A stretch of DNA of 64,000 bases from a virus (taxonomy: Duplodnaviria > Heunggongvirae > Uroviricota > Caudoviricetes): the IMG/VR virus record IMGVR_UViG_2913147268_000005; one strand, written 5' to 3'. Positions within the stretch are counted from its first letter, which is position 1. The number at the start of each line of letters is the position of its first letter. A program made the position numbers. Of this stretch, positions 1-6,000 are shown in pieces.

Positions 1-3000
1 ATGGCTTTGGCGCGACCGATGGCGAGCTGACCATGGATGTAACCCTGAAGGCGTATCAGATGCTGGCCCGCATGGCGTTACACCTGCACGCCATGCCTCC
101 ACATTATGACGCACTGACAACAGACAAAGACCGGAGGAACGAACCGGACACGGAGCTGCTGCCGGGCGCAATCCTTCGCCTGACCTGTGCGGAATGGTGG
201 AAACGCAAACTGTGGCTGTTACGTTGCGAGTGGAGAGAAGAACAACTCCGCGCCGCCTGTCTGGTTTCCAGAAAAACATCACCCTATCTGAGCCAGGACG
301 CGTTAAGCGAGTTTCGCGCACAGCGCGAGAAAACACGCGATTTCCTGAAAAGTTTCATGCTGGAAAATGAAGACGGGTTCACGATTGATCTCGAGACAGT
401 GTATTACGCGGGAGTAAGTAACCCGGTTCACCGTAAGGCAGAAATGATGGCCACCATGAAGGGACTGGAACTTCTGGCCGAAGCCCGTGGCGACAAAGCG
501 GTGTTTCTGACTGTCACCTGCCCGTCAAAATACCACGCCACAACGGAGAACGGTCATCCGAATCCCAAATGGAACGGGGCCACAATGCGCGACTCCAGCG
601 ATTACCTGGTTAACACGTTTTTTGCGGCGGTCCGCAAAAAACTGAACCGCGACGGCCTGCGCTGGTATGGCATCCGCACGGTGGAGCCTCATCATGACGG
701 CACCGTGCACTGGCATATGATGGTCTTTGCACATCCGGAAGAAATCGACACCATTGTGTCCCATACCCGCGATATTGCCATTCAGGAAGACCGCCACGAG
801 CTGGGCAATGATATTACTCCGCGCTTTAAGGTGGAGTATGTCGACGGCTCAAAAGGCACGCCAACCAGCTACATCGCCACCTACATCGGAAAGAACCTGG
901 ACAGCCGCGCCGTGGATGGCATCGACCCGAAAACGGGCAAGCCACGCGTGGACCACGAAACCGGAAAATCAATGGCCGAGAGCGTGGAGCGCGCCATCGG
1001 CTGGGCGCGCCTTCACCGGGTCCGTCAGTTCCAGTTCTTTGGCATCCCCTCCCGTCAGGTGTGGCGTGAACTGCGCCGCCTTGCCAGCCAGATGGCACGC
1101 AATCCGGAAGGCCCGCAACGGCTGAAAGATGATGCAATGGATGCGGTACTCGCTGCCGCCGATGCCGGGTGTTTTGCCACCTACATTGAAAAACAGGGTG
1201 GCGTGCTTGTTCCACGCAAGGACTACCTGATTCGCACCGCCTACGACCTCGCAGATGAGCTGAACGATTACGGCGAACAGAGCGTACAGATTTACGGGAT
1301 CTGGTCACCACTCATCGGGGAATCCTCCCGTGTGTGCACGCATCCGGATAACTGGAAGCTGGTAAGACGTAAACCGGAAGCGGAAGACAGCGCCCGCGAA
1401 AATGGTTTTGACCTTCAGGGCGGCCCTGCCGCCCCTTGGACTCGTGGCAATAACTGTCCCCGTGTACAGGAAACGGACAACAACGGGACAGAACAGCCGG
1501 AAGAACGGCCAGCACCGTGGCCGCAGCTCCCTGACGGCGTTGAAGTGAACGAATGGATGCGCTCACTGAAACGACACGAACGCCGGGCGCTGATGCGTTC
1601 GCTTCGTGACAAACAGGCAAAAAACAGCAGCGATGAAATGCAGAGCTGGACACAGAGCCGCAAACAGCAGCGGCCTTTGCCTGATAACCACGAATTACTC
1701 GCTAAAGAATGGCGGGAGTCTGCTGAATCTCTCGGCCTGCATATCGGTGAACAACAGATGCAGCACCTGTTACGGGGCGGCAGTCTGTACGTTGACGGCA
1801 GCATCATTGCACCGCAGGGATTTGAAATTGTACGCAAACCGGATACCCGCCCGGACAGCCGAATCACGCAGCTCTGGCAGCGCCTGAGCCGTAATCATGG
1901 CGTAAGCAGCACGGAGATCCGCCATAACCCGGTCGCCAGCTATCTGGCACAGCTGGGGGCATCAGACCCTGAAGCCGCCGCACGCCTGGCATCCACACTT
2001 CAGCAGGGCCAGAACACCATGAAAACACCCGTTACCGTGCTTTCTGACATGCTGCGCGCCATCCGCGACGCAGAGCACGCACAGAGAATCAGTGAAACCA
2101 CTGAACGCGCCAGCCGCAAAGCAGACCTGCTGCGGGGTGGCCTGACCAGTGGAAACAAAAAACAGACAGAAACGGGACTTACGAATCCCGTAAATGAGCA
2201 AAAAACGCGCAGCGATATATGAAGCGCGCACAAAACAGGCAAAAACGGGATTTCAGAATCCCGTAAACGATTAATTAATCAACATAAGGAAAAGCGACAT
2301 GAAAATTTGTATCGACGACGGCTCCACCAACATCAAGCTGGCATGGACTGAGAATGGCGAACGCCGCAACGCCATCAGCCCGAACAGCTTCAAGTCGGAA
2401 TGGTCTGCGCCGTTCGGTGGCATGCAGCCCGCGAACTACATGCTTGATGGCGTGCGCTATGGTTTTGATCCGGTTAGCGATCGCTTTGTCCAGACGACCG
2501 ACACGCAATACCAGTACAGCGATGTGAATGTAATCGCCATTCATCACGCGCTGGTCAAATCAGGCATCACGCCACAGGAGGTGGATGTGGTTGTCACCCT
2601 GCCACTGAGCGAGTATTTCGACACAAACGCACAGCCGGACATGGCCAACATCAACCGCAAAAAAGCGAACGTTATGCGCCCGGTGGAATACCAGAACGGC
2701 GAAGCATTCACTATCCGTAACGTGCGGGTTATGCCTGAATCCATTCCGGCTGGCTTTAAAGCACTGGCTGACATGAGTCCGTTTGAATCCCTGCTGATTG
2801 TGGATTTAGGCGGAACCACGCTGGATGTGGCAAAGGTTCAAGGGCAACTGGCAGGTATCAGCCAGGTGTTTTGCGATCCACACGTAGGCGTTTCCCTGAT
2901 GGCCGATGCCGTACTGTCGGTGATGGCCACTAACGGTATGCGCACCAGTCACCACATCGCCAATACCATTATCGAACATCGCCATGATGAAGCCTGGCTG

Positions 3001-6000
3001 CGCCAGCACATCCACAATGACGCGCATTACGCCAGCCTGATGGCGGTTATTCGTGAAAAGGAAGAAACACTGAAACAACGCGTGATCCGCGCGCTGGCGG
3101 TTTTTTCGGGTTACGGGCGGGTGATGGTTGTCGGTGGAGGGGCGGAGATTGTGGCACCCGCTATCCGCGAAGTCTGCGGAGTTAATGCGACTTTCATCGC
3201 GGACGGGGTGCCACAGTTTGCTCTGGTTAATGGGCTGTACGCAATGGACAAGGAGTAAACCAATGACGACACCAACCAGACGGATAAGTTTCTATCTGAA
3301 GCCCGCCGCCGTCAAGAGTGAACAGGAGGCGTGCAATTACCTCGATAGCCTGCCAGCCTCCGAACGCAGCCGCGCGCAACGCGCGGCCTTTCTGGCTGGG
3401 CTAGCGCTCATAAAGCGCAACCCAGCATTTGCCTACTGGATGGCCGAATGGCCAGAGGACAACCTCCCCTTCAATACCGTTAGCATCAAGGAAACATACC
3501 AGGATAATCAGCCTAGCGGAGTTGAATGCAATTTTTATAAAATAAAAAAGAATATTCAGACCTTATTCCCAGAATAATCTGATAATTGTATGTGAACTAA
3601 TAAAATACAGACCAACACATCATTCTGGCACCCTTGCTAACAGGGTGCCAATGTTTCAAATCATGATGAAATTGCCGAAGTTTTTTTATCGTGCTGAAGT
3701 ACCGCAAATGCCATTAAAACCTCAAGAGAATAGCGGCGATAATACTTAACAAAACCATAATAAAATACTCGGGATGCAGCAATACAAAACAAGAGAAGAA
3801 AACAAAAAGGTAACAGTCTGATATTTATATCTATTAAAAAGGATAGAAGGAGCAGGAACATAAGCAACCAGACTGAAGCGAGAAAAACAAATGTAATGTT
3901 TCTACAAAAACCATACAAAGCAACATAGTTTTGCATTTTCACCTGATGATTTTTAGAATGTTCATACACATAATGATAAGCAAGGCGAAAAAGATCGCCC
4001 CTCAAGCCCTTACGTCGATATAGCGTAGATACAGAAAAAACATTTATATAACCATCTCGTATTTGCGGCCAAAAGACTTTAATAAGTATAGAATGCAGTG
4101 TGGTTTTATGATGTTCTGCTTTATCAAAAGCTGATACAGGAAATAAAAAAACTCCACGAATAAAATTAACTATACTGAACTTAGTATTATGTCGTTTTAT
4201 TTTCAGGGAGCTTCTTTTAGAAAACAGATAAATTGAAGGATACCCAAGTTTACTGTTCATGTATTTTTCAATTAAACAGGATGATAGAATAGATATGAAG
4301 TGACCTGAAATATATGATAGAACGATTAATACCACATATATAAATACACTTATTATTTCTTTATATTTCAGGATATGGTTAAGAATACCTTCTATATAAA
4401 CAGGGTTAATTTCAATAGAAAACAAAAAAAGGATAAACAGGAATAACCCACCTGGAATTAGATAGCCCAAAAAGTCATAAAATGAAAACGGATTCTGTGT
4501 CACACTTCCCCCTGTGTTACTTGTAAATTAAAGGGTAAAACATTATTTGTTTTTCCGTAAAGGATTAGCTTTCCATCTTCTTACTAACCATTCGAATTCT
4601 TGATATGTAGTATCCGAATTAATGCTTTCTCTGATTGCTTTAATTAATGGCTCGGCAATATCATATGTCTCTACAACTGTTGTGTAAGATGTTCTTTTTA
4701 TCATTTTTTCATCATAAATACCTTCACGAATACTTACAGCAACTCGCTCGTAAAAATTTAAAATATATTGAAATTTTCGACGCTCGGCCATTTCTTCATC
4801 TGTTATTATGCAACCATCACAAGGAAAAACATAAGAACGAAATGATTTGCCTGAACGATGCACTTGTTTCAGGGTATGCAATGACTCTATATATTGCATA
4901 TCTTGCCGACTCTCAAAAAGAAAGTTGGCCGTTTGAGTTTTTTTTGCGGTACGCACATTGTAGATAATGGTTCCAATGGCAACCAAAACGCCAAGCAGAA
5001 CAATAGCATTGCTGATGATTTGTAGTGTTATTGGGTTCATCCTATTTCATCCATAAAAAAGGCGGGGAGCAAATCCCCGCCTCATTAGAGGTCAACGTAG
5101 CTTAGAAACCATCAAATTCATCATACATTTTTTTCATATCAACCCCCTCATAGAAATCATAACCACGTTTTGTGGTTTTTGTGACGTATAAACTACATCA
5201 AAGGCAAGCCACGGTCAAATATATAGGCATGCTTACCTGCACAAAAGTGCACAAATTTGCACAATTTTTTTGAACGACTTTTTACCCTTCCGGCCCGCAT
5301 GGCGGCTGGATCCGTCAAGGATCCGTGCGTGCACAAAAAAACGCGCTTTTTCTGCGCGCAGGTGACGGGGGAACAGCCCGCGTTTCAGGGGGTAAATAGC
5401 ATTCCCTGAACGATGTCGCAGAGACACAACAGAATGGCCATATTTCTCACGCTGAGCATGAAAAAGGCGTGAGGGCTTTTGATTTGATGGGGTGAAAGGT
5501 AAGGCCGTCAAAATCGCACTGAGGCAGCGAGAACATGCAGTCAACGCGGTGGAATTGCGTAAGAGTCTGACCGTCGATGGTGGCGATAAACTGGAAGGCG
5601 TCGTGAAATTATCTGATTGATACAGGAGCTGGAGAGCCGGGGCATAAATTTTTTATGCCCCGGCGAAGCAGCAGACAAGCGAAGCGCGTCAGCGATACGG
5701 CACCTTGCCGACCATACTTCATAAGTGCAAAATACGAGCAAAGAAATCAATGGAGGCTGTCTTATGGTCATTAATTACAAGCAGTTAAGAGAAAAACGGG
5801 AGCAGGTAAAGGAGAGCTTTCGCCGCAATGAAGATCTGACCCCGCTTGTACGCCTTGCCCAGGGCATTGTTGATGCTTATGAAATCTCGCTGGAGCTGCC
5901 ATCACAGACCTGGACAGATAGCGACGGTAATCGCCAGCATTACGTTTCATGCGGACTGGAAGCAGCCGAAGGATTTCGCAGAATGCCTTTATCCCAGATC

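What the first reader, a model, noticed from the sequence alone, without database searches (positions are those of the whole stretch)
2171..3577. Complete R1-type parM/parR partition cassette inside a P2-like prophage
The ParM ORF is a clear actin-like segregation ATPase, followed by a ParR-like RHH protein and preceded by two 27-bp repeats with a palindromic core. P2 integrates and has no known need for a plasmid partition system, so this suggests either a phage-plasmid lifestyle for this element or co-option of ParMR for another role. The first repeat overlaps the 3' end of gene A, arguing against a random fusion.
Basis: partly seen in the sequence, partly recalled or inferred. Interest (0 to 1): 0.6.

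Follow-up and report, generated by a model that had tools for sequence, protein, structure and literature searches.

The report
ParMRC partition module in P88-like prophage
A real, intact plasmid-type DNA-segregation cassette (actin-like ParM, adaptor ParR, two upstream palindromes) is a conserved backbone part of a common family of integrating P2-like E. coli phages; databases already annotate it, but nobody appears to have tested its role.

Summary
Window 2299-3258 encodes a full-length ParM, 47% identical to R1 ParM with its nucleotide-binding motifs intact. Window 3263-3577 encodes a StbB/ParR-family adaptor. Upstream lie two 42-nt repeats (2156-2197, 2229-2270), each with a 20-nt palindrome, 73 bp apart; the first lies in the last codons of replication gene A. 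There is no mis-join. The same A-parM-parR stretch occurs in 1371 of 5426 complete E. coli genomes, almost always chromosomal, and in all four named Xuanwuvirus (P88-like) species. parM is under strong purifying selection (dN/dS 0.01-0.14) and has backbone GC content. Its nearest relatives (54-62% identity; Hafnia, Plesiomonas, Serratia, Enterobacter) sit at the same A-to-portal position in other P2-like prophages. More distant relatives are on plasmids or conjugative elements. The repeats are not P2 origin elements: the nick-site homologue is about 715 bp upstream, and the repeats occur only in phages carrying parM. My best reading is a type II partition module at the end of the early operon, acting on the transiently extrachromosomal circular phage genome, like SrpMRC of SXT/R391 ICEs and AlpAC of prophage CGP3. 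A stable phage-plasmid lifestyle is not supported. It is a new member of a known kind, of moderate interest.

The parts
1..2222 (+). Replication gene A (GPA rolling-circle endonuclease). Its 5' end is cut by the window edge, and its last ~17 codons overlap repeat 1.
   Evidence: Pfam Phage_GPA E=8.8e-123. 33% identical to P2 A. Annotated as a 940-aa replication endonuclease in JJ1887 and P88.
1428..1459 (+). Probable origin nick region, homologous to the annotated P2 ori nick site inside gene A.
   Evidence: The P2 nick site is annotated at 29892. The P2 sequence GCCGCGCCTCGGAGTCCTGTCAATAACTGTGG aligns with window GCCGCCCCTTGGACTCGTGGCAATAACTGTCC at 25 of 32 positions. The alignment was placed using the protein alignment AAPRSPVNNC/AAPWTRGNNC. 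This is an inference, not a tested site.
2156..2197 (.). parC-like repeat 1; 20-nt palindrome at 2172-2191.
   Evidence: Conserved in 59 upstream haplotypes.
2229..2270 (.). parC-like repeat 2; 20-nt palindrome at 2245-2264.
   Evidence: The 73-bp spacing is kept in 54 of 59 haplotypes.
2269..2280 (.). Perfect 12-bp AT-rich palindrome GATTAATTAATC just upstream of the parM ribosome-binding site. Possibly a promoter or operator element.
   Evidence: Sequence. Eight haplotypes carry the symmetric double change GGTTAATTAACC and three carry an intermediate. The ATTAAT(CAA) core recurs upstream of parM in the Hafnia and Plesiomonas prophages.
2299..3258 (+). parM, an actin-like segregation ATPase of 319 aa.
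   Evidence: Intact in 85 of 85 related loci. dN/dS 0.01-0.14.
3263..3577 (+). parR (StbB family), a ribbon-helix-helix-type adaptor of 104 aa. This is the 'KSEQEACNY' allele.
3626..3650 (.). 9-bp-stem hairpin between the convergent parR and the minus-strand cargo gene. Probable end of the early operon.
   Evidence: fold, z = -2.2. The simple terminator scan did not call it, because the T-run is weak.

Best explanation
This is a functional type II (ParMRC, R1/StbAB-type) DNA-segregation module. It is an old, vertically inherited backbone component of a clade of P2-like temperate phages: Xuanwuvirus/P88-like phages and their relatives in Hafnia, Plesiomonas, Serratia and Enterobacter.

It forms the distal end of the early operon that runs cox ... 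A - parM - parR. I infer that it is made when the phage genome is derepressed, that is, after infection or after induction and excision.

The proposed mechanism is as follows. ParR dimers bind the two palindromes, which straddle the stop codon of A about 715 bp from the probable origin. ParM filaments capture the ParR-DNA complexes and push apart or position the monomeric circular phage genomes produced by A-dependent rolling-circle replication.

The benefit would come during the transient extrachromosomal phase. Copies would be spread through the cell and to both daughter cells before integration, or after excision. This would reduce loss of the element and/or make replication and packaging more efficient. 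The prophage itself is normally integrated.

Shown here: the identity of the genes, their intactness, the selection acting on them, the synteny, and the conservation of the repeats. Inferred: ParR binding to the palindromes, the timing of expression, and the benefit.
For: Gene identity:
- ParM and ParR domain matches.
- ParM is 47% identical to R1 ParM, with the IDDGSTNIK, MPESIPAG, DLGGTTLD and GGGAE motifs conserved.

Selection and age:
- parM dN/dS is 0.01-0.14 among six P88-like loci.
- All 85 related loci have an intact 319-aa parM, and almost all have an intact parR.
- GC content is 50-56%, like the phage backbone, against 29-38% for the downstream cargo.

Distribution and synteny:
- Present in 1371 of 5426 complete E. 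coli genomes.
- Present in all four named Xuanwuvirus species.
- The next-nearest ParMs (62, 62, 59 and 54% identity) all lie between gpA and portal Q in P2-like prophages and are followed by a StbB gene.
- These phage-borne ParMs form one clade in a neighbour-joining tree.
- The three relatives at 52% identity or less that I examined are in plasmid or conjugative-element contexts.

ParR architecture:
- It fits an adaptor: an invariant N-terminal R-R/K-I-S-F-Y-L strand, a hypervariable linker, and a conserved C-terminal N-[AI]-x-x-[LF]-F-P tail.

Centromere candidate:
- The palindromes occur only in phage records that carry parM.
- The 73-bp spacing, about 7 helical turns, is kept in 54 of 59 haplotypes.
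- The Plesiomonas lineage has two analogous GCGGGAC...CCC repeats 72 bp apart, the first again overlapping the 3' end of A.

Operon structure:
- No plus-strand terminator was found between A and parM.
- A hairpin follows parR.

Precedents on integrative elements:
- SrpMRC of SXT/R391 ICEs stabilises the excised, rolling-circle-replicating form (PMC4489591).
- AlpAC of prophage CGP3 links circular phage DNA to actin-like filaments and is needed for efficient replication (PMC4446434).
Against: - There is no experimental evidence of any kind for this cassette, and I found no paper that tests it.
- The candidate centromere has only two palindromes (four half-sites), against ten iterons in R1 parC.
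- One natural haplotype has an exact deletion of one repeat unit.
- The Hafnia lineage shows no clear repeats.
- No convincing sigma-70 promoter was found, so the timing of expression is a guess.
- P2 and 186 complete the same life cycle without such a module, so any benefit must be conditional.
- Segregation to daughter cells cannot be distinguished here from intracellular positioning for replication.
Confidence: 0.55

Rival explanations
1. Lytic-cycle organiser only (AlpAC-like). ParMR filaments position replicating circles, for example away from the nucleoid or towards assembly sites, to raise replication and packaging efficiency. Inheritance by daughter cells would play no part.
For: The cassette sits at the end of the replication operon, next to A and near the probable origin. 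The CGP3 AlpAC precedent exists. From my own knowledge, not tested here: P2-type replication yields monomeric circles that serve as the packaging substrate.
Against: R1-type ParM is a bipolar pushing machine suited to pairwise segregation. Nothing here separates this reading from the best explanation, and the two overlap heavily.
Confidence: 0.2
2. Facultative phage-plasmid. The element can persist as a low-copy plasmid prophage, and ParMRC is its partition system.
For: PLSDB holds one complete 34,461-bp circular P88-like genome recorded as a plasmid (pZ1323PEC0009-2). The Plesiomonas relative sits on a 32-kb contig of about phage size, with the integrase near one end. Partition genes are otherwise very rare in non-plasmid phages (PMC10879196).
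Against: 1532 of 1534 places in complete E. coli genomes are chromosomal. Integrase, C repressor and Cox are present, and no plasmid Rep gene is annotated. The other plasmid records are an IS26-bounded capture on an IncC plasmid and a linear fragment. A circular contig can equally come from induced phage DNA in the culture. As I recall, P2 gene A belongs to the repressed early operon, so it would not be expected to support replication in a lysogen.
Confidence: 0.1
3. Lysogenic-conversion or competition function. ParR/parC, or ParM, expressed from the prophage would interfere with incoming plasmids or phages that use a related partition system (partition incompatibility). Alternatively, ParR might act mainly as a transcriptional regulator.
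For: The cassette lies immediately next to the variable cargo hotspot of P2-like phages, the tin/old position. ParR occurs in at least two allelic N-domain classes with a hypervariable linker, which could reflect diversifying pressure.
Against: The cassette has backbone GC content and conserved synteny, unlike the cargo. Neither protein hits any PADLOC defence model. ParM is strongly conserved, which a purely regulatory role for ParR would not require.
Confidence: 0.1
4. Inert relic of an old phage-plasmid recombination.
For: None beyond the plasmid ancestry of the gene family.
Against: dN/dS is 0.01-0.14. 85 of 85 parM ORFs are intact. The cassette is retained at the same position across lineages diverged to 54% protein identity.
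Confidence: 0.03

Closest known systems
ParMRC (parA/stb locus) of IncFII plasmids R1/NR1, the type II partition system
   Same: The gene order is repeats - parM - parR. ParM is 47% identical over its full length with the same ATPase motifs. ParR belongs to the same Pfam family, Plasmid_stab_B, and has a similar C-terminal tail. The comparison with R1's ...KKNAMKLIN tail is from my memory of the R1 sequence and was not checked here.
   Different: The host is an integrating P2-like phage, not a plasmid. The candidate centromere is two 20-bp palindromes 73 bp apart, whereas R1 parC has two sets of five 11-bp iterons (R1 figure from memory). The first site lies inside the coding end of the replication gene. 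The cassette appears to be the tail of the phage early operon rather than a self-contained autoregulated operon (inferred).
SrpMRC of SXT/R391 integrative conjugative elements (PMC4489591)
   Same: It is a type II partition system on a normally integrated element whose excised circle replicates by a rolling-circle HUH enzyme. It has a small centromere (four 13-bp repeats) upstream of the actin-like gene. It is needed only in the transient excised state.
   Different: SrpM is only distantly related to R1 ParM, and SrpR has no recognisable ParR domain. It is co-transcribed with int under SetCD control. The element is conjugative, not viral.
AlpAC/alpS of Corynebacterium glutamicum prophage CGP3 (PMC4446434, PMC5539076)
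   Same: [quoted passage not shown] It is induced early on excision and acts on circular phage DNA.
   Different: It comes from an actinobacterial prophage and a distant actin-like family. The gene order is adaptor first. Its function (efficient replication) has been shown experimentally, which is not the case here.
StbA/ParM of phage-plasmid D6 (P1-like)
   Same: It is the only other ParM homologue found in 50,697 phage records, at 48% identity.
   Different: D6 is a true plasmid prophage of 91 kb. The P88-like phages integrate.

Membership tests
Type II (ParMRC) partition system, R1/StbAB type | Actin-like ATPase ParM (StbA_N plus the ParM C-terminal domain) with intact nucleotide-binding motifs | tested here: met
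   Pfam E=2.7e-82 and 1.1e-68. 314 bits to PDB 1mwk. 47% identity, with IDDGSTNIK, MPESIPAG, DLGGTTLD and GGGAE conserved.
Type II (ParMRC) partition system, R1/StbAB type | Small ParR/StbB adaptor gene immediately downstream of parM | tested here: met
   PF10784 E=7.7e-29. Weak match to pB171 ParR 2jd3, E=0.012. phrog_2515 'partition protein' E=1e-54.
Type II (ParMRC) partition system, R1/StbAB type | ParR C-terminal peptide that binds ParM | tested here: inconclusive
   A C-terminal N-[AI]-x-x-[LF]-F-P motif is conserved across all alleles and across phage and plasmid ParRs, while the preceding linker is hypervariable. The interaction itself cannot be tested with these tools.
Type II (ParMRC) partition system, R1/StbAB type | parC: a cluster of ParR-binding repeats upstream of parM | tested here: inconclusive
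   Two conserved 42-nt repeats with 20-nt palindromes lie directly upstream of parM. They occur only in phages carrying parM. The number and type of sites differ from R1, and binding has not been tested.
Type II (ParMRC) partition system, R1/StbAB type | Stabilises a low-copy extrachromosomal replicon | not testable with these tools
   This needs a plasmid-stabilisation assay.
Phage-plasmid (plasmid prophage) | Prophage maintained extrachromosomally in lysogens | tested here: not met
   1532 chromosomal places against 2 plasmid places in complete E. coli genomes. The prophage is integrated next to dmsA in JJ1887, with int, C and cox present. Only one circular 34.5-kb record exists.
Phage-plasmid (plasmid prophage) | Plasmid-type replication initiator | tested here: not met
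   The only replication gene recognised in the early region is gpA. No Rep-family gene is annotated in P88 or in the JJ1887 prophage.
P2 origin of replication elements | Sequence shared with P2/186-type phages at the A nick site, present whether or not parMR is present | tested here: not met
   The nick-site homologue is at window ~1428-1459. The repeat region matches only the 14 phage records that carry parM.
Anti-phage defence cargo of the P2 hotspot | Match to a known defence protein family; variable presence; atypical GC content | tested here: not met
   No PADLOC hit for ParM or ParR. GC content matches the backbone. The position is conserved across diverged lineages.

The most novel reading that the evidence does not exclude
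P88-like and related P2-like phages may use an R1-type actin spindle as a regular part of the temperate life cycle. One version is a facultative low-copy episomal state that backs up integration. Another is active spacing of rolling-circle-made genome circles, which would set lysogenisation or burst efficiency. Either would make them the first small integrating enterobacterial phages with a cytoskeletal genome-positioning system. They are carried by about a quarter of sequenced E. coli, including ST131.
Probability: 0.2. Interest if true: 0.65.

Novelty: new member of a known kind. Interest (0 to 1): 0.45.

Why it matters
Partition genes are reported to be very rare in non-plasmid phages (PMC10879196). 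Yet this cassette is a selected, syntenic backbone module of a prophage family present in about 25% of complete E. coli genomes, including pandemic ST131.

If it does segregate or position the excised genome, three things follow:
- It extends to a classical enterobacterial temperate phage the idea, shown for SXT/R391 ICEs and for CGP3, that 'integrated' elements carry plasmid-like machinery for their brief episomal phase.
- It offers a tractable system, since P88 and phiSM are active phages of E. coli K-12.
- It could affect prophage stability, lysogenisation frequency, and incompatibility with ParMRC plasmids.

The genes themselves are already named in RefSeq and PHROGs. The open point is function, not existence.

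Tried and rejected
1. Repeats as P2 origin elements: rejected.
2. Mis-joined plasmid contig: rejected. The A-parM-parR stretch is contiguous in 667 genomes at full coverage and in 14 phage records.
3. Defence system: no PADLOC hit for ParM or ParR.
4. Palindromes as minus-strand intrinsic terminators or as an RNA hairpin. The terminator scan flags them on the minus strand. But no minus-strand gene ends nearby, and natural variants show wobble-type changes favouring the plus strand in palindrome 2 and the minus strand in palindrome 1. There is therefore no consistent strand signal. Only the core GGGAyT...AATCC is invariant, which fits a protein-binding DNA site. The low folding energy of the region is a trivial result of two similar palindromes.
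5. Single-strand-origin-like hairpins for rolling-circle lagging-strand synthesis: considered unlikely, because the repeats occur only in phage records that carry parM, and P2 lacks them.
Wider context had to come from protein homologues plus contig look-ups.
7. I tried to check whether the strain carrying the 34.5-kb circle also has an integrated copy. The record is not in the E. coli genome collection.
8. The C-terminal extension of A shows no similarity to the extra ORF that lies between A and parM in Hafnia.
9. Per-column conservation of the upstream region among P88-like loci is uninformative, because the whole region is more than 90% identical.
10. Eight literature searches found no functional study of this cassette. 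phiSM lists it only as a 'fitness' gene (PMC6456863).
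Full report
**What is at the coordinates**

ORF 2299-3258 (+) encodes a 319-aa protein. It matches both Pfam ParM domains end to end: StbA_N at E=2.7e-82 and the ParM C-terminal domain at E=1.1e-68. It scores 314 bits against the solved R1 ParM structures. A full-length BLASTP gives 47% identity, with the actin-fold nucleotide-binding motifs IDDGSTNIK, MPESIPAG, DLGGTTLD and GGGAE preserved.

Four bases downstream, ORF 3263-3577 (+) encodes a 104-aa protein. It matches Pfam Plasmid_stab_B, the StbB/ParR family, at E=7.7e-29, and weakly matches the pB171 ParR structure 2jd3. 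PHROGs already holds both proteins as 'partition protein' families.

Upstream, the repeat finder reports one family of two 42-nt direct repeats, at 2156-2197 and 2229-2270. They are 83% identical and 73 bp apart. Each contains a 20-nt palindrome, at 2172-2191 and 2245-2264. The palindrome pattern occurs nowhere else in the 64 kb. Chance expectation is 0.11, and 0 of 100 shuffles reach two matches. Gene A ends at 2222, so repeat 1 lies in its last codons.

**What the host element is**

Window 1-15301 is 100% identical to a prophage of E. coli JJ1887 (ST131) that is integrated next to dmsA. That prophage carries integrase, a C-type repressor, Cox, a 940-aa gpA, and then P2-type portal, terminase, capsid, lysis and tail genes.

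The closest isolated phages are P88, phiSM, 520873, 503458, P884B11 and others, all in the genus Xuanwuvirus of the Peduoviridae. P88 and phiSM are active temperate phages (PMC6456863).

The 1.8-kb stretch spanning the end of A, parM and parR is found in 1371 of 5426 complete E. coli genomes. Of the 1534 places, 1532 are on chromosomes and 2 on plasmids. There is therefore no mis-join at this locus.

**Is the cassette a recent plasmid insertion or part of the phage?**

Several lines say it is part of the phage.

1. *Composition.* GC content is 50-56%, like A and the structural genes. The cargo immediately downstream (3600-5200) is 29-38% GC.
2. *Selection.* Pairwise dN/dS of parM among six P88-like loci from E. 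coli, E. albertii, Salmonella and others is 0.01-0.14. All 85 P88-like loci I collected have an intact 319-aa parM, and practically all have an intact parR.
3. *Distribution of ParM identities.* The homologue search shows a gap: 92-100% identity for the P88 group, then 62% (Hafnia, Plesiomonas), 57-59% (Serratia) and 54% (Enterobacter), then a large mass at about 50%.
4. *Synteny.* I looked up the genomic context of four of these intermediate proteins. In all four, parM lies downstream of a gpA gene, with zero to two small ORFs in between. It is followed by a StbB-family gene, then variable cargo, then the P2-type portal and terminase.
5. *Outgroups.* The three proteins at 52% identity or less that I examined lie in plasmid or conjugative-element contexts. 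These are a ParAB/Rep3 region, a TraG/TraU region, and a plasmid-like contig.
6. *Tree.* A neighbour-joining tree of 107 full-length sequences places the phage-borne proteins in one clade, separate from R1 ParM and the plasmid sequences.

Together these point to one old acquisition that has since co-diverged with a lineage of P2-like phages. This is an inference from a distance tree and seven contexts, not from a full phylogenetic test.

**Are the repeats P2 origin elements?**

No. In P2 the nick site is annotated inside gene A, 427 nt before its stop codon. The protein alignment of the two A proteins places the homologous DNA at window about 1428-1459. There, 25 of 32 bases match the P2 nick region. 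That is about 715 bp upstream of repeat 1.

A sensitive blastn of the 161-bp repeat region against 50,697 phage records hits only 14 records, all of which also carry parM. It does not hit P2, 186 or any other phage lacking parM (compare).

**Evidence that the repeats are the ParR-binding site**

- *Within the P88 group.* Among 59 distinct upstream haplotypes, the two palindromes are 73 bp apart in 54 and 72 or 74 bp apart in two. Three show only one palindrome by my pattern, and at least one of these is an exact deletion of one repeat unit. A spacing of 73 bp is about seven helical turns.
- *Which positions vary.* The core GGGAyT...AATCC is invariant, while the outermost positions vary. The variants do not favour pairing on one strand, which argues for a DNA site rather than an RNA hairpin.
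- *Plesiomonas.* This lineage has two 26-nt repeats, GCGGGACAAC...CCC, 72 bp apart, the first again overlapping the end of A.
- *Serratia and Enterobacter.* These lineages instead have a 14-20-nt inverted repeat with GGGAAC/GTTCCC ends.
- *Hafnia.* This lineage has no clear repeat.
- *Matching ParR conservation.* The N-terminal strand of ParR, R-R/K-I-S-F-Y-L-K-P, is invariant in the P88 group and nearly so across lineages.

Binding itself is untested. Two palindromes are far fewer than R1's ten iterons, although the srpC centromere of SXT/R391 has only four 13-bp repeats (PMC4489591).

**ParR architecture**

P88-like ParRs fall into two N-domain allele classes that are 56% identical overall. 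The nucleotide similarity between this window and P88 stops at window 3317, about codon 19 of parR. All alleles share three features: the first 18 residues, a hypervariable segment at about residues 65-93, and a C-terminal N-I-x-x-[LF]-F-P-E/K tail. The tail is also conserved in the other phage lineages and in plasmid ParRs. This is what one expects of an adaptor with a DNA-binding domain, a flexible linker and a ParM-binding peptide. The last assignment rests on my knowledge of R1 ParR and was not tested here.

**Operon context**

No plus-strand terminator-like site lies between A and parM. A 9-bp-stem hairpin follows parR, facing the convergent cargo gene. No sigma-70-like promoter was detected in the repeat region.

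A perfect 12-bp palindrome, GATTAATTAATC (2269-2280), sits just before the ribosome-binding site. Eight haplotypes carry the symmetric double change GGTTAATTAACC, so an unrecognised promoter or operator is possible.

I therefore infer that parMR is the tail of the early (replication) operon and is expressed when the phage is derepressed. This is an inference only.

**Mechanism and rivals**

The best-supported reading is a working ParMRC module that acts on the circular phage genome while it is outside the chromosome, that is, after infection or excision. It sits next to the replication gene and near the origin.

Two experimentally studied systems on integrative elements work this way:
- SrpMRC stabilises the excised, rolling-circle-replicating form of SXT/R391 ICEs.
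- AlpAC couples circular CGP3 prophage DNA to actin-like filaments and is needed for efficient replication.

I cannot tell whether the benefit is inheritance by daughter cells or positioning for replication and packaging.

A stable phage-plasmid lifestyle is not supported. Integration is the rule and there is no plasmid Rep gene. The plasmid-database hits I opened are an IS26-bounded capture on an IncC plasmid, a linear fragment and one 34.5-kb circular record. That circle could be induced phage DNA.

A defence or competition role is not excluded, but nothing favours it: there is no PADLOC hit, and the cassette has backbone GC content and fixed synteny. An inert relic is excluded by the selection data.

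**Novelty**

[quoted passage not shown] Eight literature searches found no functional work on the cassette. [quoted passage not shown]

This analysis adds three points:
- The module is a selected backbone trait of a whole clade of P2-like phages.
- The centromere candidate is defined and is not the origin.
- The phage-plasmid interpretation is unlikely.

I rate it a new member of a known kind, namely type II partition systems on integrative mobile elements, and of moderate interest.

Noticed in passing
window 15301/15302 (context 14055-33939): Collinearity with the JJ1887 P88-like prophage ends at 15301, inside the DUF1737/SASA/DUF6645 esterase-like gene. Minus-strand lambdoid/HK97-type genes follow (tape measure, tail tube, portal, protease-capsid, TerL, TerS), and no P88 tail genes appear in the rest of the window. 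A 2-kb query across the junction is covered at 80% or more in 0 of 5426 complete E. coli genomes. This is either a rare rearrangement between two prophages or an assembly join.
   Followed up: partly
window 3661-5040 (-): An AT-rich (29-38% GC) two-gene cargo on the opposite strand: a 280-aa multi-pass membrane protein (weak PADLOC Csx27-like hit, E=1e-5; phrog_12528) and a DUF4760 protein (phrog_2284). It occupies the position of tin/old in P2 and is probably a defence or exclusion moron.
   Followed up: partly
window ~3317, inside parR: Nucleotide similarity to P88 and most relatives stops at codon ~19 of parR. ParR exists in two N-domain allele classes with a hypervariable linker, so a mosaic recombination boundary lies inside the gene. 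About half of the E. coli genomes that have the locus carry the window's allele (667 of 1371 at 80% or more coverage).
   Followed up: partly
window 2269-2280: A perfect 12-bp palindrome, GATTAATTAATC, lies between repeat 2 and the parM ribosome-binding site. Eight haplotypes carry the symmetric double change GGTTAATTAACC and three carry an intermediate. An ATTAAT(CAA) core recurs in the Hafnia and Plesiomonas prophages.
   Followed up: partly
IMG/VR loci among L016-L095 (upstream haplotype list): One natural haplotype has an exact deletion of one 73-bp repeat unit, leaving a single hybrid palindrome upstream of an intact parM. Another has a different gpA C-terminus joined just before repeat 1, so the repeats travel with parM rather than with A.
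   Followed up: no
window ~1428-1459: Probable origin nick region of the P88-like phage, homologous to the annotated P2 nick site inside gene A (25 of 32 bases). The P88-like A protein also has a C-terminal extension of roughly 140 aa beyond the region that aligns with P2 A.
   Followed up: partly
L002 (NZ_CP148288.1, pZ1323PEC0009-2): A 34,461-bp circular 'plasmid' record from a cat E. coli isolate is a complete P88-like phage genome including the integrase. It may be excised or induced phage DNA, or a genuine episome.
   Followed up: partly
L097 (NZ_MK439959.1, IncC plasmid pC-Ec2-KPC): A piece of about 22 kb of the ST131 P88-like prophage, running from the early genes through A, parM and parR to the baseplate genes, sits between IS26 copies on a conjugative IncC KPC plasmid, with the int-cox end inverted beside it.
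   Followed up: no
L004 (NZ_JBQPOM010000071.1): A 226-kb contig labelled Vagococcus sp. carries a P88-like prophage whose ParM is 97% identical to the window's. This is most likely enterobacterial contamination or mislabelling of that assembly.
   Followed up: no
window 22591-23196 (-), inside the 861-aa portal-domain ORF: Tandem copies of a 162-bp unit, about 88-91% identical, lie in the lambdoid portal-fusion gene (self-BLAST).
   Followed up: no
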